64,000 bases of DNA from an uncultured Myxococcales bacterium (lineage in GTDB: Bacteria; Myxococcota; Kuafuiibacteriia; Kuafuiibacteriales; Kuafuiibacteriaceae): the NCBI GenBank assembly GCA_964463485.1, contig CAYXDO010000015.1:34259-98258 (forward strand), read 5' to 3'. Positions 2,772 to 56,697 of the stretch are shown here, piece after piece. Under the pieces are notes generated by a model that saw nothing but the letters and a program-made list of their open reading frames with translations, had not been told where the DNA came from and made no database searches. Each line of letters starts with the position of its first letter. Position 1 is the stretch's first letter. The position numbers were made by a program, and so were the translations under genes.

Positions 2772-3899
2772 TCATTCTCGGCCTGCGAGCGAGCTCAGGA
2801 CCAAATCGTACCGCGCCGAGACATGATCGAGCCCGTACGTACTCACAGCCCGCTGGCGCGCGGCGAGGCCCAGGCGACGACGTAGTCCTTCATCCTTCGA
2901 GAGCGCCCGGAGGACGGTTCCGAGCTCGGAGACTTCTGGGGTGACGACGAGGCCCGTCGAGTCATGATCGATCAAGCTGGCGATCCCCGGTGCGTCAGCT
3001 CCCACGCAGGCACAGCCACAAGCCATCGCCTCAATCAGGGCCTTGGAGTTCCCTTCTCGCTTGGACAAAATGACAAAGACTCGGGCCGCGTTGAGCAGCT
3101 CGGGGAGCGACTGGTTCTCGACGCGAGCGATGAACTCGACCGGCACGCCGCGCGCACGTGCGAGGGCGCGGAGGCGCGTCTCGGCCTCGCCGGTGCCTAC
3201 GATGGCCGCGCAGAGCCCGGTCCCGGCCAAGGCTTCGATCAACAAATCGTGACGTTTGTGATCGTCGAGTCTACCCACCGACACCACGTCATGGCGCGGC
3301 AAGGCGGGGCGCGGCCGAAACAAGTCGGTGTCGACGAAATTGGGCACGACGTGGATGATACGCGGTCCGAGACCGTAGCGGACTCTCGCGAACTCAGCCA
3401 ACTCCGCGGTGGGCAGAATACACTCGGCAGCGGCCCGATGGACGAACCGCTCTTCGAGGATGATTCGCTTCGCTCGCAGTGAGTCATCATTGCGAAGGGT
3501 GAACGCGTCGCCGAGCAGGTTGCCCGAGCGGGCCACGAGCGGAGCTCCCCAGATCTTGGCGGCGATCACGGCTGGGAGGCCGCCGTGGGCTTGGTTCGTC
3601 ATGATCACATGGGGGCGTTCGGAGGGTCTCGGAGGCTTGAGCCACGGGATGAGGAGGCCGTAGGCCGTAGACCAAGCTTTTGGGAGCACGAACGGCCATT
3701 GGGGTACGATGAGTCCCTCGAAACCGCCCGCGGGGACATAGGGAAGGCGGTCGAAGGTGTAGATCGCCACGCGCCAACCTCGCTCGCCGAGCGCGCGGTA
3801 AAGGGCGAGCTCACGGGAGAGGGAACCCACGCGTTCCCAGGTGCGCAGGCCGCGGCCGGTGGTCAGAAACACGGCGAGCCGCTTTTCCCTCGGGCGCAC
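2772..3899 (-). CDS. Glycosyltransferase family 1 (GT4-like, GT-B fold)
   Basis: 375-aa ORF. C-terminal EGNSKALIEAMACGCACVGADAPGIASLIDHDSTGLVV is a typical GT1 E-x7-E region. Converges on the 3' end of the upstream + gene. Confidence 0.8.
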   Translation of the reverse strand: MRPREKRLAVFLTTGRGLRTWERVGSLSRELALYRALGERGWRVAIYTFDRLPYVPAGGFEGLIVPQWPFVLPKAWSTAYGLLIPWLKPPRPSERPHVIMTNQAHGGLPAVIAAKIWGAPLVARSGNLLGDAFTLRNDDSLRAKRIILEERFVHRAAAECILPTAELAEFARVRYGLGPRIIHVVPNFVDTDLFRPRPALPRHDVVSVGRLDDHKRHDLLIEALAGTGLCAAIVGTGEAETRLRALARARGVPVEFIARVENQSLPELLNAARVFVILSKREGNSKALIEAMACGCACVGADAPGIASLIDHDSTGLVVTPEVSELGTVLRALSKDEGLRRRLGLAARQRAVSTYGLDHVSARYDLVLSSLAGRE

Positions 3900-3915
3900 T
3901 TTCGACTCTTCTCTG

Positions 3916-4767
3916 CTACCGACGTCTCGCGGAGAAATAGCCCCACACCGCGCCGGTCGCGGTGGCGGCGGCGAGGGCGAGGTGACCGATCGCGAGGCTG
4001 GGCTCCATGGAGGCCGAGTTGGTCTGTGACGCGAGCCCGACTCTATCGATCCCTCTCGCGGTCAGCGAGCGGAGCGACGTACCGTGCAGCGCGACCGAGC
4101 GGCCGCAGCCGTATCCAACACCAATGGCCTTCTCCAAAAGCTGCCTTGGAGAACGGCGAGACGGGTGCTCCACCACGACGTCGTCCCGGTAGGCGATCGC
4201 AAAACCGAAGCTCGCGGCCCGCCGACCGATTTCTGCGTCTTCTTCGTACTTGCTGAGTCGCTCGTCGAAGCCACCCGCACTCGTGAGGACTTCCCTCCGC
4301 ACGAACAAATTTGCCGTTGCTCCGAATCCTTCGCGCACATATCTTTCTTGCCGAAGGAAACGCGAGCGGTCGAGGCGCTCGGTGTACGTGGGTGGGTCGC
4401 CGGTCGAAATGACGATCCGACCGGCAACGCGCGGAGAGTCAGCCACTGCTGCGACCCCTCGTTCCAGCCAGTCAGGGCGAGGCCGGCAATCAGCGTCCGT
4501 GAATGCGACAATTTGACCCGTCGAGCTCGTCCAGCCCGTGTTTCTAGCTGCGGCGACATTTCCGCCCCCAACTCTTCGAATGACTCGGAAAGGACGAGAT
4601 GCGCGATCGAAGAGCTCTTCGGGATGGTCTTCAGACCCATCGTCGACGACGATCACTTCGAAGTCGTCGCGCGGAAGCGTTTGGGTCTCGAGAGCTCCGA
4701 TCAGATCCGGGAGGAGTGCTCGACCATTTCTAACGGGGACGACGACGGAGATCCTCGCAGCCTTCAT
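3916..4767 (-). CDS. Glycosyltransferase family 2
   Basis: N-terminal ISVVVPVRNGRALLPDLIGALETQT...FEVIVVDDGSED is a GT2 DXD-type signature. 16 nt downstream gap to the GT1 gene on the same strand. Confidence 0.8.
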   Translation of the reverse strand: MKAARISVVVPVRNGRALLPDLIGALETQTLPRDDFEVIVVDDGSEDHPEELFDRASRPFRVIRRVGGGNVAAARNTGWTSSTGQIVAFTDADCRPRPDWLERGVAAVADSPRVAGRIVISTGDPPTYTERLDRSRFLRQERYVREGFGATANLFVRREVLTSAGGFDERLSKYEEDAEIGRRAASFGFAIAYRDDVVVEHPSRRSPRQLLEKAIGVGYGCGRSVALHGTSLRSLTARGIDRVGLASQTNSASMEPSLAIGHLALAAATATGAVWGYFSARRR

Positions 4768-4832: not shown

Positions 4833-5963
4833 GTGTTGGGCGAGAGGGGCTCGCTAGGAGTCGCGAAGCCCAGGCCGGCGACCGTTCCTTCGCCGGGTCA
4901 GCCATGCTACTCTTTCGCGGTGCAGGTTCTCATCTACGGGGCCGGGTCGATAGGCAATCACCTCGCCTTCGCATGCAGAGAGAGGGACTGGGAAGTCACC
5001 GTCGTCGATGTGGACAGTGCCGCCCTGGAGAGGATGCGGAGCGAAATCTATCCCAAGAGGTACGGCGCGTGGGACCCTGCGATCCGCCTGCAGCTCGGGG
5101 AGGAGGCCGCGGGGGCGGACTTGGTCATCGTCGGGACTCCGCCCGATTCCCACCTCGAATTGGCCGAACGCGCTTTGCGCCTGCGGCCTAGAATCGTGCT
5201 CATCGAGAAGCCGTTGTCGGTTCCGTTTTCCGACTTCAGCGTGGTCGAGCGGCTCGCGCGGGAAACGGGCACTCGCGTTCTGGTAGGTTACAATCATCTC
5301 CTTTGCCGGAATACGAGACACGTCGAGCAGTTGCTTGCCGAGGGTGCGATTGGAGCGCCTATCACGATTCGGGTGAGCTGGGTCGAGTCGTGGGTCGGAA
5401 TCCTGAGGGCCCACCCATGGCTCGCTGGCCCCGAGGCTTCCTACTTGGGAAACTGGGAGCGGGGAGGCGGCTCGCTCTGCGAGCACTCCCACGGGTTGAA
5501 CCTCTTTCAACATTTTGCGCGAACTCTTGGGTTTGGCGAAGTCGAGCTCGTGAGTGCGTCTTTCGACTTCGTCGAGCAGCCGGGTTCTTCGTACGATCGG
5601 ATCGCGCAGCTTCATCTCAGGACCGAAGGCGGGTTGACCGGGCTCGTCACTCAGGACGTGGTTCAAGATCCGCCGGAGAAGAGACTTACGATCGTCGGTG
5701 CGGACGGTGTGCTGAGTTGGTACGGCGCGCGTCCCGACTCGACCGACGGGGTCGTGCTCGAGTCTCGAGGCCGCCGGGAGGAGCGGACTTTCGTCCGATC
5801 GCGCCCGGACGACTTTCGCGGGGAGATCTCACATGTGGCTGACGTCCTAGCGGACCGTGAGCTCGAATCGCCGCTCTCGTTGGAGCACGGTATTCGGACC
5901 ATGAAGGTCATCGACGGAGCGTTCCGAAGCGCGCGCGAGCGCCGCTCGGAGGGGCTTCGATGA
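4833..5963 (+). CDS. Gfo/Idh/MocA-family NAD(P)-dependent oxidoreductase. Start is GTG at 4833 or possibly GTG at 4920.
   Basis: Rossmann motif VLIYGAGSIGNHLA, then VGTPPDSHLELAERAL...IVLIEKPLS typical of Gfo/Idh/MocA. The stop overlaps the next gene's start (ATGA at 5960-5963). Confidence 0.65.
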   Translation: MLGERGSLGVAKPRPATVPSPGQPCYSFAVQVLIYGAGSIGNHLAFACRERDWEVTVVDVDSAALERMRSEIYPKRYGAWDPAIRLQLGEEAAGADLVIVGTPPDSHLELAERALRLRPRIVLIEKPLSVPFSDFSVVERLARETGTRVLVGYNHLLCRNTRHVEQLLAEGAIGAPITIRVSWVESWVGILRAHPWLAGPEASYLGNWERGGGSLCEHSHGLNLFQHFARTLGFGEVELVSASFDFVEQPGSSYDRIAQLHLRTEGGLTGLVTQDVVQDPPEKRLTIVGADGVLSWYGARPDSTDGVVLESRGRREERTFVRSRPDDFRGEISHVADVLADRELESPLSLEHGIRTMKVIDGAFRSARERRSEGLR

Positions 5964-7492
5964 CACGCTTCGCTTTCGACCCGCTCTTCGTTTTCGACTT
6001 GGCGAACAACCATCAAGGAAGCCTGGACCACGGGCTGAGGATCGTGTCCGCCATTGGCGAGGTGGTGCGAGGCGAAGGGGTTCGGGCAGCGCTCAAGGTT
6101 CAACTCCGCCACCTCGAGAGCTTCATTCACCCGGCAGCTCGGGGCTCGAAGGAGAACCGCCACGTCGAGCGGTTTTTGAGCACGGCGCTCTCTGGCGAGG
6201 ATTTCGGAAGACTCATCGCTGCGGTCAGGACTGCCGGTCTGATTCCGATGGCGACTCCGTTCGACGAGAAGTCGGTGGACTCGTTGGAAGAGCTCGGTGT
6301 CGAGGTCGTCAAGATCGGAAGTTGCTCGGCGACGGACTGGCCGTTGATTCGCCGGGTCTGCGCCTCAGGCCGGCCGGTCATCGCCTCGACTGGCGGCATG
6401 TCGCTGATCGACATTGACCGGCTCGTGGCGACGTTCACAACGCACGACGTGGAGTTCGCGCTCATGCACTGTGTTTCGATTTATCCGACTCCTGACGACG
6501 CGTTGAGGTTGAATCAGATCGACGTCCTTCGGGCTCGCTATCCTTGGATCACGGTGGGCTTTTCGACGCACGAGACGCCGACGAATCTCACCGCCGTTCA
6601 GCTTGCGTATGCGAAAGGTGCCCGGATTTTCGAGCGGCACGTCGGCCTGCCCGCCGCGGGCATCGTGCTCAACGCCTACTCGTCGACGCCCGAACAAGTC
6701 CGCGACTGGATTCGCGCGCACGAGCACGCGCGAGCGATGTGTGGAGGTACGAGGCGAGCGCCCTCACCCCTCGGCGAGCTGGAGTCGCTTCGCTCCTTGA
6801 TGCGAGGTGTGTTCGCGAGCAGACCCATCGCTCGCGGCCAAACGATCGCGCGAGACGACGTGTTCTTCGCGATGCCCCTCACGGCTGGACAGCTGAGTTG
6901 TTCTCAGTGGACCGAGGGACTGACCGCCGATGGCGATTATGAACAGCTTGCGCCGCTGTCGTTGAAGCTCGCGGAGCGCGAGAAGACGCGAGAACAACTC
7001 GTCTCCGAGATTCTGCTGCAGGTGAAGGGAGCGCTGAGTAGCGCGCGCATTGCCGTCAATCGCGACGCGAGCTTCGAGATCTCGCACCACTATGGGCTCC
7101 AACGTTTTCGAGAGTTTGGAGCAGTGATCGTCACTTGCGTGAACCGGCAGTATTGCAAGAAGCTGCTCGTGCTGCTGCCTCGGCAGAAGCATCCCTATCA
7201 CATGCATCGAACCAAGGAGGAGACGTTCCAGCTCCTCGCAGGAGATCTCGAGCTCGAGCGCGACGGGACACCCATCACCCTTCGACCAGGTGACACGGCG
7301 CTCGTGGGTCCCGGCGTCTGGCACAAGTTTCACACCCTTGGGGGCGCGGTGATCGAGGAGATCTCCACGACGGACTCACCCAACGACTCGGTGTACGAAG
7401 ACTGGCGAATCAACTCGCTCGCGCCGGCCGAACGCAAGACGTCCGTGCGCGGTATCGAAACGAATCTCGAACAGCCCGAGCTTTCCGAGTAG
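5960..7492 (+). CDS. N-acylneuraminate (nonulosonic acid) synthase family protein: NeuB-like TIM barrel, SAF domain and an extra C-terminal cupin domain
   Basis: N-terminal VFDLANNHQGSLDHGLRIVSAIG resembles the NeuB/PseI/SpsE IAEIGxNHNG motif. A mid-region SAF-like segment (ARGQTIARDDVFFAMP). The last ~150 aa (HMHRTKEETFQLLAGDLELERDGTPITLRPGDTALVGPGVWHKFHT) is cupin_2-like. Confidence 0.7.
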   Translation: MTRFAFDPLFVFDLANNHQGSLDHGLRIVSAIGEVVRGEGVRAALKVQLRHLESFIHPAARGSKENRHVERFLSTALSGEDFGRLIAAVRTAGLIPMATPFDEKSVDSLEELGVEVVKIGSCSATDWPLIRRVCASGRPVIASTGGMSLIDIDRLVATFTTHDVEFALMHCVSIYPTPDDALRLNQIDVLRARYPWITVGFSTHETPTNLTAVQLAYAKGARIFERHVGLPAAGIVLNAYSSTPEQVRDWIRAHEHARAMCGGTRRAPSPLGELESLRSLMRGVFASRPIARGQTIARDDVFFAMPLTAGQLSCSQWTEGLTADGDYEQLAPLSLKLAEREKTREQLVSEILLQVKGALSSARIAVNRDASFEISHHYGLQRFREFGAVIVTCVNRQYCKKLLVLLPRQKHPYHMHRTKEETFQLLAGDLELERDGTPITLRPGDTALVGPGVWHKFHTLGGAVIEEISTTDSPNDSVYEDWRINSLAPAERKTSVRGIETNLEQPELSE

Positions 7493-7495
7493 ATC

Positions 7496-8206
7496 GTGTT
7501 CTCTAGCAAGCGAACGTTGGTCGTAGTCCCGGCGAGGGGTGGGAGCCAAGGGATCCCGCTCAAGAACCTCAAGATCGTCGGCGGGCGGTCACTTTTGGCA
7601 CGAACCGGCGAGGTCGTTTCGCAGCTCGATTTCGTCGATCGCGCGGTCTGCTCGACGGATCATCCGCGCATCGCCGAGGAAGCTCGCGCGGTCGGTCTCG
7701 AGACTCCGTTCGTGAGGCCACAGACTCTCTCGGGGCCGCTCGTCTCAGACGCCGAAGTGCTCGAGCACGCGCTACGCGAGGTCGAGCGGCAGGAGGGCGC
7801 CGAGTACGATCTGGTGGTCATGCTGCAGCCGACGTCGCCCTTGCGTCGCGCCGAAGACGTGACGGGCACGGTGAAGATGCTGGTCGAAGGCGGCTACGAC
7901 GCGGTGTGGACGGTGAGTCTGACCGATCCAAAGCACCACCCCCTCAAGCAGCTCATCATCGAAGGTGACGCCCTCGATTATTATGATGCGGAGGGAGCCC
8001 AGATCATCGCACGCCAACAACTCACTCCTGTATACCATCGGAATGGAGTTGCCTACGCCATCTCGCGTGGCTGCTTGCTCGAACGGCGAAGCATCAAGGG
8101 GTCGAGAACCGGCGCGATGATCGTCGAAGCTCCCGCGATCAGCATCGACACCGAGAGTGACTGCGACTTTGCGGAGTGGATCCTCTCTCGGAGGAGCTCC
8201 CGTTGA
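7496..8206 (+). CDS. Acylneuraminate cytidylyltransferase family (CMP-nonulosonic acid synthetase, NeuA/KdsB-like)
   Basis: N-terminal LVVVPARGGSQGIPLKNLKIVGGRSLL matches the NeuA PARGGSKGIPxKN signature. 236 aa, typical for a stand-alone NeuA domain. Begins 4 nt after the NeuB-like stop. Confidence 0.8.
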   Translation: MFSSKRTLVVVPARGGSQGIPLKNLKIVGGRSLLARTGEVVSQLDFVDRAVCSTDHPRIAEEARAVGLETPFVRPQTLSGPLVSDAEVLEHALREVERQEGAEYDLVVMLQPTSPLRRAEDVTGTVKMLVEGGYDAVWTVSLTDPKHHPLKQLIIEGDALDYYDAEGAQIIARQQLTPVYHRNGVAYAISRGCLLERRSIKGSRTGAMIVEAPAISIDTESDCDFAEWILSRRSSR

Positions 8207-8214
8207 TTCCGGAG

Positions 8215-9543
8215 ATGGCGCGCCGAAAGGCCGAGAGCGCCAAGCGCCGGGTGGGTGAGCGCGCGCTCGGCGTGGCTGCCAGGGCTCGTCGGGCCAGGGA
8301 GACCGCGTTGCTCCTGAGGGCCTTGATTCGACCCATCACACCTCGGCGCGGGTCGAACGCGATCAGGATCCTCGTGCTGCCGGCAAATGGGTTTCTGGAG
8401 GACATGCTGGAGGTCGCGGCGAGCGACCCTCGGATCGAGCTCCATGCGCTCTCGCGGACCGCGGTGAAGGCCGTTGCTTCAGCCTTTCTCTCTCCTCGGG
8501 TCAATGACTTCACGTATGGGTCTCCGGACGCGGCCGATCGGCAGGGTATGCGGGCGTATCGCGAGTTTCTCGTCGAGGTGCTCCTTCGAATGCCTTCGGA
8601 GTTGAGGTTCCATGCAGTGGCGAGCGGCAATTTTGCCTACTATGCGGAGCAGGAGCTCGCCGCAGCGTTCGAGGCCTGTGGAGTTCCGTTCGTCGTGCTT
8701 TTGAAGGAGTGTCTCAACACCCCCGGTCTCGAGCGGTTTTGGGAGAGAGTCTATCGTGAGTGGCGCCGACCGTTTGGCGGCCGAAAAATCCTCGTGTACA
8801 ACGAAGGGACTCGGGGGTTGCTCTTGCGCTCGGGTGTTGCGCCGAGCGAGCGCATCTCGGTGGTAGGGATGCCGCGGCTCGATCGCCAACATCGGGACCG
8901 GTCGGGAGGGATGTCCGCCGCACAACTCTTGTTCCTCGTCTTTGGGCCTCGAACAGGGTTGCCGGACATTCCTTCGAGCCGGCGGGACCTCCCCTCAGAG
9001 CTCAGGTACACGGGATGGCGAGACCTCGCGAGGGAGTGCCATCGCGCGGTGCTCGACGTCGCGGTCGAAGCGCCCGAGTCGAGGATCATCGTCAAGGCCA
9101 AGGAAGTCTTGGCCCACCAAAGGGAGGTGGAGGAACACTACCAGGGTCGTCGCGAGCTTCCGCCGAACGTCGAGGTGATCTCGGTGGGCGAGGTGTTCGA
9201 GCCCTTGAGGCGCAGCAGGATCGTGGTGGGTTTCAAATCGACGGCTTTGCTGGAGGCGATGGCGGCCGGCAAGGCGGTCATGGTGCCTCGCTTCGCGGAA
9301 GCGAGCGACCCGGCCTTGGCGGACTTCCTGTTGGATTTGGGAGAGTATGTCGAGTATCCGGAGTCAGCGAGCGCGTTCCGAGCTTCGATGCTACAGCACT
9401 TACGCGGGCAGCGGACGGCGCCGGGCGCTGCCGAATGGGCCGCGCTGGCAAGGCCGGTGTTGGAGCGATGGCTCGGCAACGCCGACGGTCGCTCGGCGGA
9501 GCGAGCTCGGGCCGAGCTCTTGGAGCTGAGTCGTGTCGCATAG
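8215..9543 (+). CDS. Hypothetical protein of about 442 aa. Candidate GT-B-like sugar transferase or modification enzyme acting on the CMP-nonulosonate product.
   Basis: ATG at 8215 is preceded by GGAG. ORF-track start 8176 overlaps the NeuA-like gene. No motif I can name. The position, wedged with overlaps between NeuA-like and GT2, suggests the same operon. Confidence 0.5.
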   Translation: MARRKAESAKRRVGERALGVAARARRARETALLLRALIRPITPRRGSNAIRILVLPANGFLEDMLEVAASDPRIELHALSRTAVKAVASAFLSPRVNDFTYGSPDAADRQGMRAYREFLVEVLLRMPSELRFHAVASGNFAYYAEQELAAAFEACGVPFVVLLKECLNTPGLERFWERVYREWRRPFGGRKILVYNEGTRGLLLRSGVAPSERISVVGMPRLDRQHRDRSGGMSAAQLLFLVFGPRTGLPDIPSSRRDLPSELRYTGWRDLARECHRAVLDVAVEAPESRIIVKAKEVLAHQREVEEHYQGRRELPPNVEVISVGEVFEPLRRSRIVVGFKSTALLEAMAAGKAVMVPRFAEASDPALADFLLDLGEYVEYPESASAFRASMLQHLRGQRTAPGAAEWAALARPVLERWLGNADGRSAERARAELLELSRVA

Positions 9544-10405
9544 TGTCTCGGTCGTGGTTCCGACCGCGAACAGACGACCGCACGAAATTCTCCGAGCCGT
9601 CGACAGCGTGTTGTCGCAGTCTTCGGGCCGAGCGCTCTCGGGCGTCGAGCTCATCGTCGCGAACAACTCGTCCGGGCGGCTCAACCGCGCCATCGAGGTG
9701 CTCGCAGAGTCCGGCGCGCTGCAGGTCGTGGACGCCTCACGGGTGACCGGTGTCAGTCACGCTCGAAACGCGGGCGCTCGTCTGGCGCGACACGAAGTCC
9801 TCGCATTCTTGGATGACGATGACTGGTGGTCCCCGTCTTTCCTCTCAGACTTGCTGCTCGAGCTCGACGCACACTCCGCCGATTTGTGCTCCAGCGGGTT
9901 TTGGGTTTGGACGGAGAGAGGTAAGAAGCCCGGTCCGATGCTCGAATCACCCACGACGGCGGCGCGGTTCTTGAGTGAGAATCCGGGCATCACGGGCTCG
10001 AACTTCATCATTCGTCGGAGCGCCTTCGAGGCGCTCGGCGGCTTCGACGAGGCCCTGTTCGCGTCCAACGATGGGGACTTCATGATTCGCTTCCTGGAGT
10101 CCGGAGAGTACGCATGGCGAGTCGTGATGGCGAGGCTGGTGAACGTAGACCGTACGCCACACGACCAGGTCTCCGTGCCCACGCCAAGACGAGTCCAGAG
10201 CATGCGGAGATTTCAGTCCATCCACGGCGCCAAGATGGGCCCGCGGGTCCAGAGAGACTTCGAGTACCGCCTGGCCGTGTGCGAGGCCGCGAGCAACCGA
10301 TCCTATTGGGATTTGGTCGGGCTGATTCCCCGGCATCCTAGGTGGTCACGCCAGACACTCGGGTGGATCAAGAAGCTCGCGCTGGGCCGGCACTCGACGT
10401 TCTGA
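9533..10405 (+). CDS. Glycosyltransferase family 2
   Basis: MSHSVSVVVPTANRRPHEILRAVDSVLSQS...FLDDDDWW is a GT2 fold signature. Start overlaps the previous stop by 11 nt. Confidence 0.75.
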   Translation: MSHSVSVVVPTANRRPHEILRAVDSVLSQSSGRALSGVELIVANNSSGRLNRAIEVLAESGALQVVDASRVTGVSHARNAGARLARHEVLAFLDDDDWWSPSFLSDLLLELDAHSADLCSSGFWVWTERGKKPGPMLESPTTAARFLSENPGITGSNFIIRRSAFEALGGFDEALFASNDGDFMIRFLESGEYAWRVVMARLVNVDRTPHDQVSVPTPRRVQSMRRFQSIHGAKMGPRVQRDFEYRLAVCEAASNRSYWDLVGLIPRHPRWSRQTLGWIKKLALGRHSTF

Positions 10406-11456
10406 GCGGATCGCGGCTCAGACGTCTGGCGACCGCGTCAGCCATCGCCCGCTCCACGTTCACCGGACCCCCGATTTCGATCCAGCGGTCGAATTCTCGC
10501 CGATAATGAAAGCGAGCCTTCAGCGCCGTCGTGAGCCCGAAATGCACACCTTGATACTCCAACAACAATGGACGTTCTGGGCTTGGCCGACGATCGACGA
10601 TGATGTCGAGCGACGCGAAGGGCAGGTCGAGCTCCTTGGCGGCCTCGAAAGCGAAGTCGAGGATCGTTGCGGGGACCGGCAAGAACTCGAGCCTGCCGCC
10701 CCCGCTCGCCCGAAAGTCGCGCCGACGATTGCGGCGGTAGAGGCCGCACGCGACGTCGTCCCACAGAAGTACTTTCCAATCCCCTTCGCTGACGATGAGC
10801 TCCTGAGCGACGAGTCGCCCAACGGTATGCCGGCGCAGCGCTCGGTCGAGCGCCCGCCTGACGAGACCGCGACCGGGAAACGATGCCGGATCGGTGAGGA
10901 TTCGTCGCGCGGCCCGTCGCGCCTCGCTGGGCGTGCGCGCGAGGCTCACGCCGGAGGCCCCCCACCCAGTCGCGGTCTTCAACACGATGGGAAAGTCCGC
11001 ATCAGCCAAATAGCGATCGAGGTGACCGGAAAAGCCGAAGACTCGAGTCCGCGGGACGGGAATCTTGGAGCGCCCGAGACGGACGGCCTGGTAGACCTTG
11101 TCTTCGTGGGCGAGCATGTGCTCGAACGAAGGCAAGAGGACGACGCCTTGTCTCTCCAGGGCTGAGAGTATCGACCTGATGAAAGCCGAGTACTCTGGAC
11201 GCTGGCTCGTCGCGTACACGGCGGCGGAGGGCCGAGCTGTGGCAAGCTCGAACAACCGCGGATCATGGAGCCCTACCGAAACCGCTTCGAGCCCGTGCCC
11301 GTTCAAGCTCCCCTCGAGCTCCCGCAAGTCTAGCCCCTCGTTCGCGCCGATGCGTTGTGGCACCTGGCCTTTGAAGTCCGTGAGGATCAAGACCCGAGAG
11401 ATGGGTACGGATAGGCGAGGAGAGTCCACCGCCCGACGAATAACTCGACGCTTCAC
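10368..11456 (-). CDS. ATP-grasp domain protein (RimK/D-Ala-D-Ala-ligase-like). Start uncertain, probably GTG near 11456.
   Basis: FPIVLKTATGWGASGVSLARTPSEARRAARRIL is the ATP-grasp glycine-rich ATP-binding region, followed by WKVLLWDDV...YRRN. The full ORF to 11660 would overlap the divergent GT2 start at 11475, so a shorter N-terminus is likely. Confidence 0.55.
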   Translation of the reverse strand: MKRRVIRRAVDSPRLSVPISRVLILTDFKGQVPQRIGANEGLDLRELEGSLNGHGLEAVSVGLHDPRLFELATARPSAAVYATSQRPEYSAFIRSILSALERQGVVLLPSFEHMLAHEDKVYQAVRLGRSKIPVPRTRVFGFSGHLDRYLADADFPIVLKTATGWGASGVSLARTPSEARRAARRILTDPASFPGRGLVRRALDRALRRHTVGRLVAQELIVSEGDWKVLLWDDVACGLYRRNRRRDFRASGGGRLEFLPVPATILDFAFEAAKELDLPFASLDIIVDRRPSPERPLLLEYQGVHFGLTTALKARFHYRREFDRWIEIGGPVNVERAMADAVARRLSRDPLRTSSAGPARAS

Positions 11457-11474: not shown

Positions 11475-12407
11475 GTGAATCCGACGCTCTCGATTGTCGT
11501 TCCCGCGCGAAACGTCGCCCGGTGGATCGACGAAGCCGTTCGAAGCGCGCTCGGCTCGAGGCTCGCCTGCGAAGTGCTCGTGGTGGACGATGGCTCGAGT
11601 GATGATACTTGCTGCAGAGTCGAGCAGATTCGCGATTCGCGGGTGAGGGTCGTTCGGCAACGTCCGTTGGGACTCTCATCGGCTCGAAATCGAGGGATCA
11701 CCGAGGCCACCGGGCAATTCATTAGCTTCTTGGACGGCGATGACTGCGTGCTCGCGGCAGAGCTCGATCGAGCGGTGAGTCGCCTGGCGCGTACGGAAGC
11801 CTGGGTGATTTATGGAGAGACCATGATCATGGACTCTCTTGGCAGGGTCTTCGGAGCACGTCCGCCTCCCCTGTTTGCGCCCCGACCGGAGGGTGACGTG
11901 CTCCGGGCGCTCCTCGCTCGCAATTTCATCGCCAGCACGGGAGCCACCGCCATCCGGAGGATCGCGTTCGAGTCGGTGGGTCGGTATGCGCCCGAGCTCG
12001 TCCGGGCGCAGGACTGGGAGATGTGGTGCCGACTCGCAGCCAAGGGTAGGTTCCTTTACGCGGGTCCTCGGCCCATACTCCTCAGGAGAGTCAGAGTCGG
12101 AAGCGTGAGTGCGACGATCGGACTCTCCGCTGCCGAGATGCTTCGTACGATCGAGGTCGTGTTTTCGAATGCGGACGTGGTGGGCGCGATTCCGCGCGAG
12201 CGACTTCGCACGCTGGAGCGCATGCAGATAGCGTTTGCCCACGTAGTCGCGGGAACGGAGTGCTTGAGGGCGCGGCGGTTCGATGAAGCCCGCCGCGCCC
12301 TCGCCCGCGCCCTCGCGATGGATCCGACGCGCCCAGAGGCCGGCGTGCTGCTTCTCGCGGCGCTCGCGCGCCGACTGCCCTCCTCGCTGGAACGCAGACT
12401 CAAGTAG
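11475..12407 (+). CDS. Glycosyltransferase family 2 with C-terminal TPR-like helical tail
   Basis: MNPTLSIVVPARNVARWIDEAVRSAL...VLVVDDGSSDDT...FLDGDD are GT2 motifs. C-terminal Ala/Arg-rich helical region. Confidence 0.75.
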   Translation: MNPTLSIVVPARNVARWIDEAVRSALGSRLACEVLVVDDGSSDDTCCRVEQIRDSRVRVVRQRPLGLSSARNRGITEATGQFISFLDGDDCVLAAELDRAVSRLARTEAWVIYGETMIMDSLGRVFGARPPPLFAPRPEGDVLRALLARNFIASTGATAIRRIAFESVGRYAPELVRAQDWEMWCRLAAKGRFLYAGPRPILLRRVRVGSVSATIGLSAAEMLRTIEVVFSNADVVGAIPRERLRTLERMQIAFAHVVAGTECLRARRFDEARRALARALAMDPTRPEAGVLLLAALARRLPSSLERRLK

Positions 12408-12464
12408 TCGCAGCGGCTTCTCCTTGCACCGCAGCTGCCTCTCGGGTGATCGTCCTCGCTGCTG

Positions 12465-13457
12465 GTGCTCATCTCCATCGTCATACCGATGCTTGACGAA
12501 GCGGGGAGCCTGCCGAGCCTCCACGCGGAGCTCGTCAAAGTCATCGAATCGAGTGGTCTCGAGGCGGAGGTCATCTTCGTCGACGACGGAAGCACGGACG
12601 CGACGTGGCGAGAGCTCGAAGCCATGACCCGACAGGATTCCAGAGTCGTGGCCCTTCGCCTGCGGCGCCGATTCGGCAAGGCCGCTGCGCTCTCGGCGGG
12701 CTTTGCGTTGTCGCGAGGCGAGCTCATCGTGACCTTGGATGGAGATGGCCAAGACGACCCGATGGAGGTTCCTCGGTGCTTGCGCGCGATCGATGAGGGC
12801 CTCGACGTCGTGGTCGGGTGGAAGCGCGATCGAAGGGACCCATTTACCAGGGTCCTCGCCAGCCGAATATTCAACCTCACGGAGAGCCTGCTCAGCGGGT
12901 TGCGGCTTCACGATCATAACTCGGGGCTGAAGGCGATGCGTCGCGCAGTGGTGTCGGAGGTGCGGTTGCACGGGGAGCTCCATCGCTTCATTCCCGCGCT
13001 CGCTCATGCTCGCGGCTTCCGGGTGGGAGAGATTCCGGTGAATCACCGGCCGCGTAAGTTTGGAAAATCCAAGTACGGCTTGTCGCGGTACGTCTGGGGA
13101 CTCCTCGATCTATTGATGGTCCGCCTGCTCGTGGGTTATCGCAGCCGGCCCCAACACGTGTTGGGTCTCTTGGGCTTCGGCTCCTTCTTCGCTGGCGGGA
13201 CCGGGCTGAGTTACCTCGCGGCCACGTGGATCGCCCGTTTTTATCGAGCGGACGAATACCTTCCGCTCGCGTCACGGCCACTGACTTTGTATTCGGTGGC
13301 CGCCCTCGTCTTCGGCGCCCAGATGCTGTCCTTGGGATTTCTCGCGGGACTCCTGCCCGTCTACAGCTCCCGAGATGAGGATCATTACAGCATCAAGGGA
13401 GTCATCGACTCCCGCCGGCCCCTCGACGTGTCCGCGCAGGAGAAGAGAGGAACGTGA
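12465..13457 (+). CDS. Polyprenyl-phosphate glycosyltransferase (GT2, DPM1/ArnC/GtrB-like) with C-terminal TM helices
   Basis: MLISIVIPMLDEAGSL...VIFVDDGSTDATW...VTLDGDGQDDP is the DPM1/ArnC signature. Two C-terminal hydrophobic helices typical of bactoprenol-P sugar synthases. Confidence 0.8.
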   Translation: MLISIVIPMLDEAGSLPSLHAELVKVIESSGLEAEVIFVDDGSTDATWRELEAMTRQDSRVVALRLRRRFGKAAALSAGFALSRGELIVTLDGDGQDDPMEVPRCLRAIDEGLDVVVGWKRDRRDPFTRVLASRIFNLTESLLSGLRLHDHNSGLKAMRRAVVSEVRLHGELHRFIPALAHARGFRVGEIPVNHRPRKFGKSKYGLSRYVWGLLDLLMVRLLVGYRSRPQHVLGLLGFGSFFAGGTGLSYLAATWIARFYRADEYLPLASRPLTLYSVAALVFGAQMLSLGFLAGLLPVYSSRDEDHYSIKGVIDSRRPLDVSAQEKRGT

Positions 13458-15286
13458 ATTCGAGAGAGCCCGGAGTGACCAACTCAGCTCGCCCGGGACT
13501 TCTCGAGGCGATGGGCGCGACCTGGTCGATGCTAGCCGTCAAGGATCGGCGTCGCCTGCTCGGACTCGTGGGGCTGCTCGTGATCGGCGCTGGACTGGAG
13601 GCGCTCGGAGTTGGATCGATCTTGCCGATCGTCCTCATGATCACTCGAGGTGAGTCAGCGGCTGCCCCGGGCTTGTCGCCCAAGCTCTACGCGGTGCTCG
13701 AGCGACTCACTTCGGGAGTCGGTCCTCCTGCGGTGGCGCTGCTCGTAGTCGGCGTCTTCGTTGTCAAGAACGGCTTTCTCTCCCTGACCGCGTACCTGCA
13801 ATTTCGTTTCATCAATCGCTTGCAGGTAGAGGCGGGAGAGGAGTTGTTTCGCCTTTACATGAGTCTGCCGTACGTCGATCATCTGGGTTCGAACCCGGCG
13901 CATCTGCTGAGGGACATCGACTCGGACGTCAAGCTCGCCCATCAAAAGGTGCTGCGCGCGATGATTCAGCTCCTCACGGAGGCCTTCGTTCTCTCTGCCA
14001 TCACGCTCCTGCTCGCGCTGCTCGATCCAGCCGTCGCGATCGCGGCGTTTGGGGTTTGTGGGGCGATGGGTTGGGCGTTTCACAGACTGATTAGGCGAAA
14101 GAGCGCTGGCTTGGGGCTTGCGGAGCGTCGGGCTCGGGGTCGAATCAACGAGCTCGTCCTGCAAGGGTTGCACTCCCTTCGTGAGACGAAGGTTCTCGGA
14201 CGCGAGGGCTTCTTCATCGCCGGTTTCGCGGAGGAGGCTCGACTGTTTTCGCGCGCGCACCTTTTCAACCAAATGGCGACGACGACCCCGTACTACGTTC
14301 TCGAGACGGTCGTGGCGGCAAGTCTGCTCCTGGTCCTGTGGTTGGGTCTGGTTCGGGGGTATGAGTTGTCGACGCTGGCTCCGGTCTTGGCTGTGTTCGT
14401 GGTCGCCGCGCTCCGCCTCGCCCCTTCGCTCAATCGAACGCTCGGAGCGGTCGAGTCGATGAGGTTCCACGGCCCCTCCGTGCGGGCGCTGTTGGCGAAT
14501 CGCTCGCGGGCACGTGCGAGTATCCTCGTCGAGGTGACGATGGGCGAACGAATCGAGCTGACGAATTCCATCCAGCTCCGAGGAGTTTCGTTCTCCTATC
14601 CCGACTCGCGTCGCCGCGCGCTCACCGAAGTCGAGCTTACCATCCCTCACGGCACGATTTTCGGCCTCGTCGGCCCCACCGGTAGCGGTAAGACCACGAC
14701 GGCCGATCTCGTACTGGGGCTGCTGCGCCCTCAAAGTGGGGAAATCCTCGTCGACGGGAAAGACATCTTCCGCGGCCTCGAGAGTTGGCGGGATCAGGTC
14801 GCGTATGTACCGCAGACCGTCTATCTCACGGACGACACGATTCGTCGAAACGTCGCCTTCGCCCTGCCGCCCGAGCGAATCGACGAGGCCGCGGTACTCA
14901 GGGCGCTGGAAGGCGCGCGGCTCCTCGACTTCGTACGCTCGCTCCCCAAGGGGCTCGAAACCGTCGTGGGAGAAGCGGGAGCTAGGCTCTCGGCGGGGGA
15001 GCGTCAGCGGATTGGAATCGCCCGCGCGCTGTATCGACCGGGCCGACTCCTCGTCCTAGACGAGTCCACCTCGGCGCTCGATTTGGAAACCGAGCGGCAA
15101 ATCTGCGAGACGATTTCGAGCCTACGCAAGGATCGGACGATCCTGATCATCGCTCATCGGCCCAGCACGATCGAGTCATGCGACCAGGTCTGCCTGCTAT
15201 CAGAAGGTCGTATCATGCGGATCGGAGCTCCACGAGAGGTGATGGGCGAAGGTTTCGGAGTGGCCTCGGCTGGGGCGCTTTCATGA
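13454..15286 (+). CDS. ABC exporter, fused permease plus ATPase (MsbA/PglK-like). Candidate lipid-linked glycan flippase.
   Basis: Six-TM N-terminal half. Walker A GPTGSGKTT, ABC signature LSAGERQRIGIARAL, Walker B LLVLDESTSALD. GTG start overlaps the upstream stop (GTGA). Confidence 0.85.
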   Translation: MNSREPGVTNSARPGLLEAMGATWSMLAVKDRRRLLGLVGLLVIGAGLEALGVGSILPIVLMITRGESAAAPGLSPKLYAVLERLTSGVGPPAVALLVVGVFVVKNGFLSLTAYLQFRFINRLQVEAGEELFRLYMSLPYVDHLGSNPAHLLRDIDSDVKLAHQKVLRAMIQLLTEAFVLSAITLLLALLDPAVAIAAFGVCGAMGWAFHRLIRRKSAGLGLAERRARGRINELVLQGLHSLRETKVLGREGFFIAGFAEEARLFSRAHLFNQMATTTPYYVLETVVAASLLLVLWLGLVRGYELSTLAPVLAVFVVAALRLAPSLNRTLGAVESMRFHGPSVRALLANRSRARASILVEVTMGERIELTNSIQLRGVSFSYPDSRRRALTEVELTIPHGTIFGLVGPTGSGKTTTADLVLGLLRPQSGEILVDGKDIFRGLESWRDQVAYVPQTVYLTDDTIRRNVAFALPPERIDEAAVLRALEGARLLDFVRSLPKGLETVVGEAGARLSAGERQRIGIARALYRPGRLLVLDESTSALDLETERQICETISSLRKDRTILIIAHRPSTIESCDQVCLLSEGRIMRIGAPREVMGEGFGVASAGALS

Positions 15287-28619: not shown

Positions 28620-28675
28620 CCACTGCGCCGGGTCATGACGTTCTCGATCGCTCGGACCGACTCGTGGTGAATCGC

Positions 28676-30025: not shown

Positions 30026-30169
30026 GCCGCATAGTAACGCAAAGGCGCTCCGGCGCCTGCGTCAGATCGTCCCGCGAAGGAGCGACCACGCCGGATGGAC
30101 GCCAAACCCGCACAGGCCCCGGCATGAATCGAGTCTCGTGAGTAGAGCTTCCAGCGGAATGAGTCCTTC

Positions 30170-37534: not shown

Positions 37535-37544
37535 AGGTCGGCGC

Positions 37545-39299: not shown

Positions 39300-39322
39300 G
39301 CCGCCAGCTTACGCCCGTTCGC

Positions 39323-40294: not shown

Positions 40295-40307
40295 GTACTC
40301 TCCACGA

Positions 40308-56686: not shown

Positions 56687-56697
56687 TTTCGGCTTGC

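What the first reader, a model, noticed from the sequence alone, without database searches (positions are those of the whole stretch)
4833..10405. Translationally coupled nonulosonic-acid (sialic-acid-like) CMP-sugar cassette
The genes run oxidoreductase (Gfo/Idh/MocA), NeuB-like synthase, NeuA-like cytidylyltransferase, unknown protein, GT2, with ATGA or 4-11 nt overlaps. This is the hallmark arrangement for making and transferring a CMP-activated 9-carbon sugar (Neu5Ac/legionaminic/pseudaminic/Kdn type). No dehydratase or aminotransferase (PseB/PseC-like) is present in the window, so the precursor route and the sugar identity are unclear. Such sugars are uncommon outside host-associated bacteria.
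Basis: partly seen in the sequence, partly recalled or inferred. Interest (0 to 1): 0.6.

Follow-up and report, generated by a model that had tools for sequence, protein, structure and literature searches.

The report
Self-contained CMP-ulosonic-acid sugar operon
Five tightly packed genes probably make and attach a sialic-acid-like acidic sugar, using a widespread but unstudied enzyme set whose synthase is fused to a sugar isomerase, so the exact sugar (probably the non-aminated Kdn type) is still unknown.

Summary
Five co-directional genes (window 4920-10405, + strand) overlap or nearly abut. They encode a Gfo/Idh/MocA oxidoreductase, a NeuB-family synthase, a NeuA/PseF-type cytidylyltransferase, a 446-aa protein and a GT2.

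The synthase is NeuB-family, not KdsA or DAHP synthase. The cytidylyltransferase sits closer to CMP-NeuAc synthetase/PseF than to KdsB.

It is not a canonical Neu5Ac/Leg/Pse cassette:
- The 510-aa synthase carries a C-terminal D-lyxose/D-mannose-isomerase-like cupin.
- It scores far below the NeuB and PseI equivalog cut-offs.
- It lacks NeuB's Arg314 and Glu134.

It belongs to an uncharacterised clade found in at least 298 species of many phyla. That clade nearly always sits in a module Gfo – NeuB-cupin – HAD phosphatase – cytidylyltransferase, often with a TIGR04396 transferase. No dehydratase, aminotransferase or NeuC appeared in the loci whose gene calls I read. This explains the "missing" precursor genes.

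The likeliest route mirrors Kdo/Kdn synthesis: ketose(-P) to manno-type aldose(-P), then PEP condensation, then CMP activation. The window copy lacks the HAD. Its "unknown" protein is a divergent GT-B relative of nonulosonic-acid transferases. The sugar's identity is unproven.

The parts
4920..5963 (+). Gfo/Idh/MocA-family NAD(P) oxidoreductase, 347 aa (longest ORF starts at 4833). It belongs to a subfamily that sits directly upstream of NeuB-cupin genes.
   Evidence: Pfam PF01408/PF22725/PF02894. The NCBI gene call starts at 4920. 45-55% identical homologues are numerous. It lies upstream of NeuB-cupin in 66 of 69 loci. Best solved relatives are only weak matches: scyllo-inositol DH at 1e-10.
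5960..7492 (+). Three-part synthase, 510 aa: a NeuB TIM-barrel (about aa 1-280), a degenerate SAF-like linker domain (about aa 285-335), and a D-lyxose/D-mannose-isomerase-like cupin (about aa 345-490, window about 6992-7430).
7496..8206 (+). CMP-ulosonate synthetase (acylneuraminate cytidylyltransferase family), 236 aa.
   Evidence: PF02348 7.8e-16. PseF model 100 bits, below its 205.7 cut-off. N. meningitidis CMP-NeuAc synthetase 1.7e-21 against KdsB about 2e-5. The PARGGSxGIPLKN motif is present.
8203..9543 (+). P4: a GT-B-fold enzyme, 446 aa (455 aa from GTG 8176). It is the putative CMP-ulosonate transferase and a divergent relative of TIGR04396/BFO_1060.
9533..10405 (+). GT2 (GT-A) glycosyltransferase, 290 aa. 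It is the last gene of the coupled block.
   Evidence: PF00535 8.8e-23. It overlaps P4 by 11 nt.
2772..4767 (-). Divergently transcribed GT4 (2772-3899) and GT2 (3916-4767) of the same glycan locus.
   Evidence: Pfam.
10368..11429 (-). Convergent ATP-grasp (RimK-like) protein. Its 3' end overlaps the end of the GT2 gene. It may modify the glycan.
   Evidence: TIGR00768 2.7e-12, PF08443 5e-4. Gene call.
11475..17729 (+). Rest of the glycan locus: GT2-TPR (11475-12407), polyprenyl-phosphate-type GT2 with a membrane tail (12465-13457), fused ABC exporter (13454-15286), GT2 (15283-16266), and a polytopic membrane protein (16221-17729).
   Evidence: Pfam and gene calls.

Best explanation
The block is one operon that makes a CMP-activated 3-deoxy-2-ulosonic acid without an amino-sugar branch and attaches it to a surface glycan.

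Proposed steps:
1. The cupin domain of the 510-aa synthase, a Mn-type aldose-ketose isomerase of the D-lyxose/D-mannose isomerase kind, turns a common ketose or ketose phosphate into a manno-configured aldose. Fructose-6-P to mannose-6-P is the simplest case.
2. The fused NeuB barrel condenses that aldose with PEP.
3. In most relatives a HAD-IA phosphatase encoded between the synthase and the cytidylyltransferase removes the terminal phosphate. The window copy lacks this gene and would rely on a housekeeping phosphatase.
4. The NeuA/PseF-type enzyme makes the CMP-sugar.
5. P4, a GT-B enzyme of the TIGR04396/BFO_1060 lineage, transfers the sugar. The GT2 and neighbouring GTs build the acceptor, and the nearby ABC exporter moves the product.

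The most likely product is Kdn or a close non-aminated analogue. The Gfo/Idh/MocA enzyme belongs to a subfamily that recurs next to nonulosonate cytidylyltransferases. It performs an unassigned redox or epimerisation step.

Shown here: gene content, domain identities, conserved catalytic residues, and the conservation of the module. Inferred: the order of steps, the substrate, the product, and the acceptor.
For: Domain assignments:
- NeuB, cupin, CTP_transf_3, Gfo and GT2.
- The cupin is closest to D-lyxose isomerases by sequence (7nzo 2e-8, 2y0o 1.4e-6).
- The HxH...E...H metal motif is invariant.

NeuB chemistry looks intact. Counterparts of K53, Q55, T110, K129, S132, S154, Y186, S213, H215, E234 and H236 of N. 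meningitidis NeuB are invariant across the clade.

The sugar pocket differs. R314 becomes an invariant Met305, E134 an invariant Ser123, and N184 becomes Ala or Ser. The roles of R314 and E134 are taken from PMC8208679.

Module conservation in 80 species-level loci from many phyla:
- Gfo: 66 of 69.
- HAD: 57 of 69.
- Cytidylyltransferase: 54 of 56.
- TIGR04396: 26 of 44.
In the three loci whose gene calls I read, no dehydratase, aminotransferase or NeuC lies inside the module.

Precedents:
- The logic parallels KdsD/KdsA/KdsC/KdsB (my own knowledge of that pathway).
- The Man-6-P to Kdn-9-P to Kdn to CMP-Kdn route is established (PMC6200933).
- A Kdn-making NeuB fused to a different sugar-isomerase domain exists in Serratia (PMC9000132).
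- A missing dedicated phosphatase was also seen for the Prymnesium Kdn pathway.

P4:
- GT-B fold.
- Homology to TIGR04396, which is related to the genetically validated Tannerella Pse/Leg transferases (PMC5420450).
- P4 homologues lie in other NeuB/NeuC/NeuA clusters.
Against: - No enzyme of this clade has been assayed, so substrate and product are guesses.
- Characterised D-lyxose isomerases act on free sugars, not sugar phosphates. The phosphate status of the intermediate therefore rests only on the HAD gene, which this window lacks.
- Kdn can be made with NeuB and NeuA alone, as in the S. coelicolor cluster SCO4879-4881. A conserved oxidoreductase is therefore unexplained by a plain Kdn route and may point to another sugar.
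- P4 lacks the D/E-D/E-G and HP motifs that TIGR04396 keeps (HKENL and VKxKG instead).
- In two related loci a full Pse gene set sits beside the module with only one cytidylyltransferase in view.
Confidence: 0.6

Rival explanations
1. The same enzymes make a previously undescribed ulosonic acid rather than Kdn. One option is an 8-carbon acid from xylulose-5-P via lyxose-5-P. Another is a 10-carbon acid from sedoheptulose-7-P via glycero-manno-heptose-7-P. A third is an oxidised or epimerised Kdn produced with the Gfo enzyme.
For: - The cupin's nearest relatives are D-lyxose-specific isomerases.
- The near-universal oxidoreductase (66 of 69 loci) is not needed for plain Kdn.
- The sugar-contact residues differ from all characterised NeuB enzymes.
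- The clade scores equally poorly against the NeuB/LegI and PseI models.
- Mass-spectrometric surveys report rare higher-carbon ulosonic acids of unknown origin (PMC8157484; bioRxiv 10.64898/2026.04.20.719630).
Against: - Nothing in the sequences fixes the chain length.
- Kdn is the abundant non-aminated nonulosonic acid in environmental samples, and the module is widespread, which favours the common sugar.
- The higher-carbon acids reported so far look like Pse/Leg derivatives with N-acyl groups.
Confidence: 0.22
2. It is an ordinary Neu5Ac, legionaminic or pseudaminic acid cassette. Its precursor genes (NeuC, or PseB/C, or LegB/C) simply lie elsewhere in the genome.
For: - NeuB-family synthase plus NeuA/PseF-like cytidylyltransferase.
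- A Gfo-type oxidoreductase (PtmF) also sits next to LegF in legionaminic clusters (PMC4481668).
- Two related loci carry Pse genes next to the module.
- Only 64 kb of the genome could be inspected.
Against: - The synthase scores 131 against 400 bits (NeuB/LegI) and 113 against 340 bits (PseI). A true PseI from L004 scores 482.
- Arg314, the one conserved SAF-domain catalytic residue of NeuB enzymes, is an invariant Met here.
- The fused isomerase and the HAD have no role in those pathways.
- The module recurs in 80 genomes, and in the loci whose gene calls I read it holds no amino-sugar genes.
Confidence: 0.1
3. P4 is not a transferase. It is a highly divergent NeuC/WecB-like (hydrolysing) nucleotide-sugar 2-epimerase that supplies a manno-configured sugar to the synthase.
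For: - The window has no recognisable NeuC.
Against: - There is no Pfam Epimerase_2 match.
- Profile-profile homology is to TIGR04396. That family carries sialyltransferase-type motifs and is related to proven Pse/Leg transferases.
- In the Devosiaceae locus a genuine Epimerase_2 gene coexists with a P4 homologue.
- The shared G-x-P-R-x-D motif is, from my memory, typical of TagB/TagF-type enzymes.
Confidence: 0.08
4. The cassette serves ordinary LPS-core Kdo synthesis.
For: Weak secondary matches of the cytidylyltransferase to KdsB models (about 40-47 bits).
Against: - The synthase has no KdsA or DAHP-synthase similarity.
- KdsB models score far below their cut-offs and below PseF and CMP-NeuAc synthetase.
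- The genes sit in a variable glycosyltransferase/ABC-exporter locus.
Confidence: 0.02

Closest known systems
Kdn pathway (Bacteroides thetaiotaomicron BT1714/BT1713 and Prymnesium parvum: Man-6-P + PEP to Kdn-9-P to Kdn to CMP-Kdn)
   Same: A NeuB-family synthase, then usually a HAD phosphatase, then a NeuA-type cytidylyltransferase. No amino-sugar branch. A dedicated phosphatase can be absent (PMC6200933).
   Different: Here the synthase is fused to a D-lyxose/mannose-isomerase-like cupin, and a Gfo/Idh/MocA enzyme is a fixed partner. The module's HAD is type IA rather than KdsC-like (my recollection for BT1713). The product is unverified. No sequence comparison with BT1714 could be run.
Kdo pathway KdsD-KdsA-KdsC-KdsB
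   Same: The same four-step logic: ketose-P isomerase, PEP condensation, phosphatase, CMP activation.
   Different: Every enzyme except the cytidylyltransferase comes from a different fold family: cupin instead of SIS, NeuB instead of KdsA, HAD-IA instead of KdsC. The cytidylyltransferase groups with NeuA/PseF, not KdsB.
Canonical bacterial NeuC/NeuB/NeuA, PseB-I/PseF and LegB-I/LegF clusters
   Same: The NeuB TIM-barrel with conserved metal and PEP residues. A CTP_transf_3 activating enzyme. Location in a surface-glycan locus.
   Different: Scores far below the equivalog cut-offs. Arg314 becomes Met and Glu134 becomes Ser. No epimerase, dehydratase, aminotransferase or acetyltransferase genes. 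An extra cupin domain.
Serratia marcescens KL1/KL2 capsule NeuB (Kdn producer)
   Same: A NeuB fused to a sugar-isomerase-type domain, paired with NeuA only, and giving Kdn (PMC9000132).
   Different: The Serratia fusion partner is a COG1082 sugar-phosphate isomerase/epimerase (TIM-barrel type) in a roughly 746-aa protein, not a cupin. The two fusions are independent.
3G8R, 'probable spore coat polysaccharide biosynthesis protein E' (solved structure; Chromobacterium violaceum by my recollection)
   Same: The closest solved relative of the NeuB and SAF-like part (4.7e-88, aligned over 314 residues). It also lacks the Arg314 equivalent.
   Different: It is 350 aa with no cupin. I know of no functional data for it.
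TIGR04396 'surface carbohydrate biosynthesis protein' / BFO_1060 (Tannerella forsythia Tanf_01245 Pse/Leg transferases)
   Same: P4 is homologous (hhalign 95.5%), has a GT-B fold, shares G-x-P-R-x-D, and holds the same position next to the cytidylyltransferase.
   Different: P4 scores 32 bits against a 125 cut-off. It replaces the D/E-D/E-G and HP motifs with HKENL and VKxKG. It forms its own family of about 700 cluster representatives.
PtmF-type oxidoreductases next to LegF in legionaminic-acid clusters
   Same: An oxidoreductase (PtmF, 326 aa) encoded beside a nonulosonate cytidylyltransferase (PMC4481668 Table 5). The same Gfo-cytidylyltransferase pairing is seen in L087-L090 and in a Halorussus plasmid.
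   Different: No PtmF sequence was available to compare. The window protein is only 26-27% identical to the Gfo proteins of the other cluster types.

Membership tests
NeuB / nonulosonic acid synthase family (PF03102) | NeuB TIM-barrel domain detectable above the Pfam gathering score | tested here: met
   136.2 bits against a cut-off of 22.1, E 1.6e-39. PDB NeuB homologues at 4.7e-88 to 1.7e-12.
NeuB / nonulosonic acid synthase family (PF03102) | Two His metal ligands and the Lys/Ser/Thr PEP-binding residues (N. meningitidis H215, H236, K53, K129, S132, S154, S213, T110) | tested here: met
   The counterparts H204, H227, K46, K118, S121, S143, S202 and T99 are invariant in 22 clade members. Residue roles come from PMC8208679 and my recollection of the NmNeuB structure paper.
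N-acetylneuraminate / legionaminate synthase (TIGR03569 equivalog) | Score at or above the curated equivalog cut-off (399.65 bits) | tested here: not met
   131.1 bits. Three other clade members score 125-131 bits.
N-acetylneuraminate / legionaminate synthase (TIGR03569 equivalog) | SAF-domain Arg314 and Glu134 contacting the sugar | tested here: not met
   Arg314 aligns with an invariant Met305 (FAMP). Glu134 aligns with an invariant Ser123.
Pseudaminic acid synthase PseI (TIGR03586) | Score at or above the curated cut-off (340.25 bits) | tested here: not met
   113.2 bits. The positive control, PseI in locus L004, scores 482 bits.
Kdo-8-P / DAHP synthase | Similarity to the KdsA/AroG family | tested here: not met
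   No such family appears among the Pfam, NCBIfam or PDB hits of the synthase.
D-lyxose/D-mannose isomerase cupins (PF07385) | Family HMM match and the closest fold | tested here: met
D-lyxose/D-mannose isomerase cupins (PF07385) | His-His-Glu-His metal site and the K-E-T-F catalytic stretch | tested here: met
   H414, H416, E421 and H455 plus KEETFQ are invariant. They align to the HRH...KQETF...H of 7nzo and 2y0o.
D-lyxose/D-mannose isomerase cupins (PF07385) | Isomerase activity and substrate (free sugar or phosphorylated) | not testable with these tools
   Requires an enzyme assay.
CMP-nonulosonate synthetase (NeuA/PseF/LegF; CTP_transf_3) | Family HMM match and the N-terminal P-A-R-x-x-S-x-x-x-x-x-K-N motif | tested here: met
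   PF02348 at 59 bits against 22.6. PARGGSQGIPLKN is present. The Q variant recurs in 5 other module copies.
CMP-nonulosonate synthetase (NeuA/PseF/LegF; CTP_transf_3) | PseF equivalog cut-off (205.7 bits) | tested here: not met
   100.2 bits.
KdsB (CMP-Kdo synthetase) | KdsB equivalog or subfamily cut-offs | tested here: not met
   17-47 bits against cut-offs of 155-281. PDB KdsB at 2e-5 against CMP-NeuAc synthetase at 1.7e-21.
TIGR04396 / BFO_1060 nonulosonic-acid transferase lineage | Score above the family cut-off | tested here: not met
   32.3 bits against 125, and 24 bits against 200. A module partner from L003 scores 358 bits.
TIGR04396 / BFO_1060 nonulosonic-acid transferase lineage | Homology at profile level and a GT-B fold | tested here: met
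TIGR04396 / BFO_1060 nonulosonic-acid transferase lineage | Bacterial sialyltransferase motifs D/E-D/E-G and HP | tested here: not met
   TIGR04396 members have WDEEGL and RPHPSEN. P4 has HKENL and VKxKG at the aligned positions. The motif definition is from PMC5420450.
Conserved NeuB-cupin module (Gfo - NeuB-cupin - HAD - CTP_transf_3), defined here | Gfo directly upstream, and the cytidylyltransferase downstream on the same strand | tested here: met
   Window gene order, compared with 66/69 and 54/56 in other species.
Conserved NeuB-cupin module (Gfo - NeuB-cupin - HAD - CTP_transf_3), defined here | HAD-IA phosphatase between the synthase and the cytidylyltransferase | tested here: not met
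   There is only a 3-nt spacer between the two genes. A profile built from 63 module HADs finds nothing in any window ORF of 70 aa or more at E <= 10. 12 of the 80 loci analysed (the window's own locus among them) lack it too.
Kdn biosynthesis (Kdn-9-P synthase type) | Man-6-P-dependent synthase activity, with Kdn detected | not testable with these tools
   No assay was possible.

The most novel reading that the evidence does not exclude
The Gfo - NeuB-cupin - (HAD) - cytidylyltransferase module is an unrecognised, self-contained pathway present in hundreds of species across many phyla. Carriers include Desulfobacterota, Bdellovibrionota, Hyphomicrobiales, Verrucomicrobiota, Planctomycetota (including anammox bacteria), Bacillota, Actinomycetota and Chloroflexota. 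It would make a CMP-activated ulosonic acid that is not Neu5Ac, Leg, Pse, Kdo or plain Kdn, for example an 8- or 10-carbon or redox-modified acid. The fused isomerase would feed the synthase directly, and the window shows a phosphatase-less variant with its own transferase family.
Probability: 0.22. Interest if true: 0.8.

Novelty: new variant of a known kind. Interest (0 to 1): 0.5.

Why it matters
Acidic sialic-acid-like sugars cap bacterial surface glycans. They shape phage recognition, biofilm and EPS properties, and immune interactions.

Chemical surveys find Kdn-type and unassigned ulosonic acids at high frequency in environmental microbes and in wastewater granules. The genes responsible cannot yet be told apart from ordinary NeuB annotations (PMC10483923).

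The NeuB-cupin module is conserved and easy to recognise. It has more than 6000 protein clusters matching at E <= 0.001 in the first search, not all of them necessarily the fusion, and at least 298 species. It is a concrete candidate for part of that chemistry. It gives a defined set of four or five enzymes to reconstitute.

If the product is Kdn, the module supplies a missing genetic marker. If not, it enlarges the known set of CMP-activated sugars and supplies new transferase families (TIGR04396 and the P4 family) for glyco-engineering.

Tried and rejected
1. KdsA/KdsB reading. Rejected on family scores.

2. Literature search for the fusion or the module. I tried NeuB + cupin + cytidylyltransferase + nonulosonic; Gfo Idh MocA + N-acetylneuraminate synthase + cupin; lyxose isomerase + NeuB; and Kdn synthase/CMP-Kdn. 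No paper describes it. The large NeuB phylogeny paper does not mention cupin fusions.

3. tblastn of the synthase against 72,556 plasmids. Only canonical NeuB/PseI at 27-31% identity turned up, with no fusion.

4. Trying to type the module's HAD through solved structures. There were no informative hits.

5. Testing whether HAD-less loci carry a different synthase. No alignment column separates the 68 HAD+ from the 12 HAD- loci, so there is no sign of a substrate switch.

6. Direct BLASTP of P4 against the TIGR04396 partner. This was insignificant. The relationship appeared only at profile level.

7. S. coelicolor Kdn cluster as a test of whether Gfo goes with Kdn. It has only NeuE-like, NeuA and NeuB genes, so Gfo is not explained by Kdn.

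8. The Schoenhofen 2009 paper on PtmF/PtmA is not held. The functional claim for PtmF therefore rests on my memory and is not used as evidence.

9. Promoter and terminator scan. Uninformative.

10. A reference Kdn-9-P synthase (BT1714), PtmF and SCO4881 sequences could not be obtained, so no phylogeny with characterised enzymes could be built.

Full report
**Where the window comes from**

The synthase protein is identical to an NCBI protein on contig JACQYO010000084.1 (282.7 kb) of assembly GCA_016208175.1. This is a metagenome-assembled 'Deltaproteobacteria bacterium'. The window is the reverse complement of part of that contig. GC content is 61-69%. No tRNA genes are present.

**Checking the observation**

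The five ORFs are present on the + strand. GC3 is 0.75-0.79 against GC2 of 0.46-0.49, which supports all five reading frames.

Pfam and NCBIfam assign them as follows:
- Gfo/Idh/MocA oxidoreductase.
- NeuB plus Cupin_2/Lyx_isomer.
- CTP_transf_3.
- A protein with only weak hits: DUF6716, TIGR04396 and BFO_1060.
- GT2.

The junctions read from the sequence are:
- Gfo/NeuB: ATGA overlap, preceded by GGAGG.
- NeuB/cytidylyltransferase: a 3-nt spacer (TAG ATC GTG).
- Cytidylyltransferase/P4: TTGA overlap if P4 starts at 8203, or 31 nt from GTG 8176.
- P4/GT2: an 11-nt overlap.

The oxidoreductase probably begins at GTG 4920, which places the GxGxxG motif at the N-terminus as in the NCBI call. No promoter-like site lies inside the block, and terminator-like sites do not exceed chance.

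Pfam scans of the selected long ORFs (>=200 aa, one per stretch) along the 64 kb find glycosyltransferases, an ABC exporter, an RND pump, a histidine kinase, a sulfotransferase, a CotH kinase and others. They find no sugar dehydratase, aminotransferase or NeuC-type epimerase.

The synthase is NeuB-family:
- PF03102, E 1.6e-39.
- Best solved relative 3g8r at 4.7e-88, then N. meningitidis NeuB at 8.5e-27, then PseI at 1.7e-12.
- No KdsA or DAHP-synthase match.

The cytidylyltransferase matches PseF (100 bits) and N. meningitidis CMP-NeuAc synthetase (1.7e-21). These are far better than its matches to KdsB (17-47 bits; 2e-5). The Kdo reading is rejected.

**Why it is not a canonical sialic, legionaminic or pseudaminic cassette**

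1. The synthase scores 131 bits against the NeuB/LegI equivalog (cut-off 400) and 113 bits against PseI (cut-off 340). Three other clade members score the same. A PseI from related locus L004 scores 482 bits.

2. The sugar pocket differs while the catalytic core is kept.
   - In the alignment with N. meningitidis NeuB, the metal and PEP residues are kept and are invariant in 22 homologues.
   - Arg314 is the only conserved catalytic residue of the SAF domain in NeuB enzymes (PMC8208679). Here it is an invariant Met305 in an FAMP motif.
   - Glu134 is an invariant Ser123, and Asn184 is Ala or Ser.

3. The protein has a C-terminal cupin of about 165 residues.
   - It aligns over its whole length with D-lyxose/D-mannose isomerases (7nzo 2e-8, 2y0o 1.4e-6). 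This includes the YCxK..PxQ..HxH...K(E/Q)ETF...H signature.
   - An AlphaFold model of the domain has pLDDT 87.
   - These isomerases all make aldoses with the manno/lyxo arrangement at C2-C3. From established NeuB chemistry, that is the configuration NeuB-type enzymes condense with PEP.

**The clade and its conserved neighbourhood**

The fusion is common:
- 6097 protein clusters match at E <= 0.001 (not all need be the fusion). The best non-self hits are 53-60% identical and almost all carry NeuB+Cupin_2(+Lyx_isomer) at about 505 aa.
- A pattern scan of one genome per species finds 298 loci. They come from Desulfobacterota, Bdellovibrionota, Hyphomicrobiales, Gammaproteobacteria, Verrucomicrobiota/Kiritimatiellia, Planctomycetota (including Ca. 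Anammoxibacter), Bacillota, Actinomycetota and Dehalococcoidia.
- Cultured carriers include Desulfofustis glycolicus DSM 9705 and D. limnaeus.

I called ORFs in the 80 fetched loci and searched them with the window proteins and with partners seen in three annotated loci.

| Gene | Loci with the gene / loci with enough flank |
|---|---|
| Gfo directly upstream | 66 / 69 |
| HAD-IA hydrolase next to the synthase | 57 / 69 |
| Cytidylyltransferase | 54 / 56 |
| TIGR04396 protein (about 485 aa) within 6 kb | 26 / 44 |

In the three loci whose gene calls I read, no dehydratase, aminotransferase, acetyltransferase or NeuC lies inside the module. Two of them (L004, L006) have a separate Pse gene set alongside.

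The window copy differs in two ways:
- It has no HAD. There is no room between the genes, and a profile of 63 module HADs finds nothing in the window. 12 of the 80 loci analysed (the window's own locus among them) share this.
- It carries P4 instead of a TIGR04396 protein.

No alignment column of the synthase separates HAD-containing from HAD-less loci. There is therefore no sign that the substrate changed. The Prymnesium Kdn pathway likewise lacks a recognisable dedicated phosphatase (PMC6200933).

**The 'unknown' protein P4**

- It has 41 homologues in the word-indexed search, all unnamed. A profile search finds 722 cluster representatives at E <= 1e-30.
- The AlphaFold model is confident (pLDDT 90.7, pTM 0.90) and shows two Rossmann-like halves.
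- hhalign against ten TIGR04396 members from the loci gives 95.5% probability (E 1.5e-8, 280 columns).
- TIGR04396 proteins carry WDEEGL and RPHPSEN. These are the D/E-D/E-G and HP motifs of bacterial sialyltransferases. They were noted in the Tannerella Pse/Leg transferases Tanf_01245/BFO_1060, whose role was shown genetically (PMC5420450). TIGR04396 proteins also match the BFO_1060 model.
- P4 keeps the shared G-x-P-R-x-D stretch but has HKENL and VKxKG at the two motif positions.
- Three P4 homologues lie in a different nonulosonic-acid cluster. Its genes are NeuB+SAF, NeuC-type Epimerase_2, a 2-hydroxyacid dehydrogenase, a ThDP enzyme, Gfo, a cytidylyltransferase 42% identical to the window's, a sulfotransferase, a deacetylase and P4.

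P4 is therefore best read as a divergent CMP-ulosonate transferase. The coexistence with a true Epimerase_2 argues against the alternative that P4 is a cryptic NeuC.

**The oxidoreductase**

Its subfamily is well defined (45-55% identity), but solved relatives are distant. A Gfo-type gene beside a nonulosonate cytidylyltransferase recurs in several settings:
- L087-L090, and as a fusion in L089.
- A Halorussus megaplasmid cluster with NeuB, DegT, SDR and GNAT genes. This was the only plasmid hit of the window protein.
- PtmF, listed as an oxidoreductase, next to LegF in legionaminic clusters (PMC4481668).

The S. coelicolor Kdn cluster has no such gene. Its step remains unassigned. It could act on a sugar phosphate before the isomerase, or it could epimerise or oxidise the ulosonate.

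**Most likely mechanism**

By analogy with KdsD/KdsA/KdsC/KdsB and with the Man-6-P to Kdn-9-P to Kdn to CMP-Kdn route:
1. The cupin converts a ketose (phosphate) into a manno-type aldose (phosphate).
2. The fused NeuB barrel condenses it with PEP.
3. A phosphatase, HAD in most genomes and unknown here, frees the acid.
4. The cytidylyltransferase activates it.
5. P4 transfers it.

The GT2/GT4 enzymes and the ABC exporter of the surrounding locus (window about 2.7-17.7 kb) would build and export the carrier glycan.

Kdn is the simplest product. A Kdn-producing Serratia NeuB is independently fused to another kind of sugar isomerase domain (PMC9000132). Kdn is also abundant in environmental EPS without an assigned gene marker. 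The fixed oxidoreductase and the lyxose-isomerase affinity leave room for a different acid.

My estimates:
- A CMP-ulosonate operon of the self-contained type: about 0.8.
- The full mechanism as stated: 0.6.
- Kdn specifically: about 0.4.
- A new acid: about 0.2.

**Novelty and verdict**

The kind of system is known: a NeuB-type synthase, a CMP-activating enzyme and transferases. The fused isomerase-synthase with its Gfo/HAD partners appears undescribed. The window adds a phosphatase-less variant with its own transferase family.

It is not strange enough to be categorically new, and nothing here is experimentally anchored. Interest is moderate (0.5). The value lies in a widespread module, easily reconstituted, that may explain environmental Kdn-type sugars.

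Noticed in passing
window 1-2720 (+), continuing upstream of the window (L001 3093-6761): A very large (1222-1566 aa by different gene calls) protein heads the glycan locus. It has an N-terminal membrane-like region, a PPDK_N ATP-grasp domain and a C-terminal PEP-utilizers mobile domain. It is possibly a dikinase-type phosphotransferase acting on a sugar or glycan. It scores only 62 bits against PRK05849.
   Followed up: partly
L090 1713-11356 (Devosiaceae MAG); also L088 and L089: A different, apparently uncharacterised nonulosonic-acid cluster. Its genes are NeuB+SAF, NeuC-type epimerase, D-2-hydroxyacid dehydrogenase, a ThDP-dependent enzyme, Gfo/Idh/MocA, a cytidylyltransferase, a sulfotransferase, a polysaccharide deacetylase and a P4 homologue. 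In L089 the Gfo C-terminal domain and the cytidylyltransferase are fused in one 509-aa protein.
   Followed up: partly
L091 (Halorussus aquaticus plasmid NZ_CP100401.1, 165456-182367): The only plasmid hit of the window's oxidoreductase lies in a haloarchaeal nonulosonic-acid cluster. That cluster has a NeuB-family gene, a DegT aminotransferase, SDRs and a GNAT. The hit sits next to a SpsF/PseF-like nucleotidyltransferase annotated as 'glycosyltransferase family protein' and a class-III aminotransferase.
   Followed up: partly
L004 16207-17542 (-) and L006 10959-15810 (+): In two related loci a complete or partial pseudaminic-acid gene set (PseB/C/G/H/I-like) sits beside the NeuB-cupin module. 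Only one cytidylyltransferase is in view. Either the enzyme is shared or two ulosonic acids are made at one locus.
   Followed up: no
window 10368-11429 (-): An ATP-grasp (RimK-like) gene converges on the GT2 and overlaps it by 38 nt. It could add an amino acid to the acidic sugar or glycan.
   Followed up: no
window 12465-21504: Downstream of the cassette lie a polyprenyl-phosphate-type GT2 with a membrane tail, a fused ABC exporter, another GT2 and three large polytopic membrane proteins (502, 800 and 465 aa). The last of these has a weak GT87 match. This suggests periplasmic GT-C-type glycosylation.
   Followed up: no
window 36530-40438: A sulfotransferase (36530-37534, +), a CotH-family kinase (37545-39299, -) and an AIR-synthase-related protein (39323-40438, -) lie together. 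Sulfotransferases also accompany the module in L003 and in L087-L089.
   Followed up: no
window 28616-30034 (+) and 28676-30025 (-): Two almost fully overlapping ORFs of about 450-470 aa lie on opposite strands. Neither has a convincing Pfam match, so the coding strand is unresolved.
   Followed up: no
window 43881-48710 (+) and 52612-56820 (-): A 1609-aa protein with four Big_2 domains, and a 1402-aa protein combining a STAND-like AAA/TPR region with a sigma-54 activator and an HTH_8 domain.
   Followed up: no
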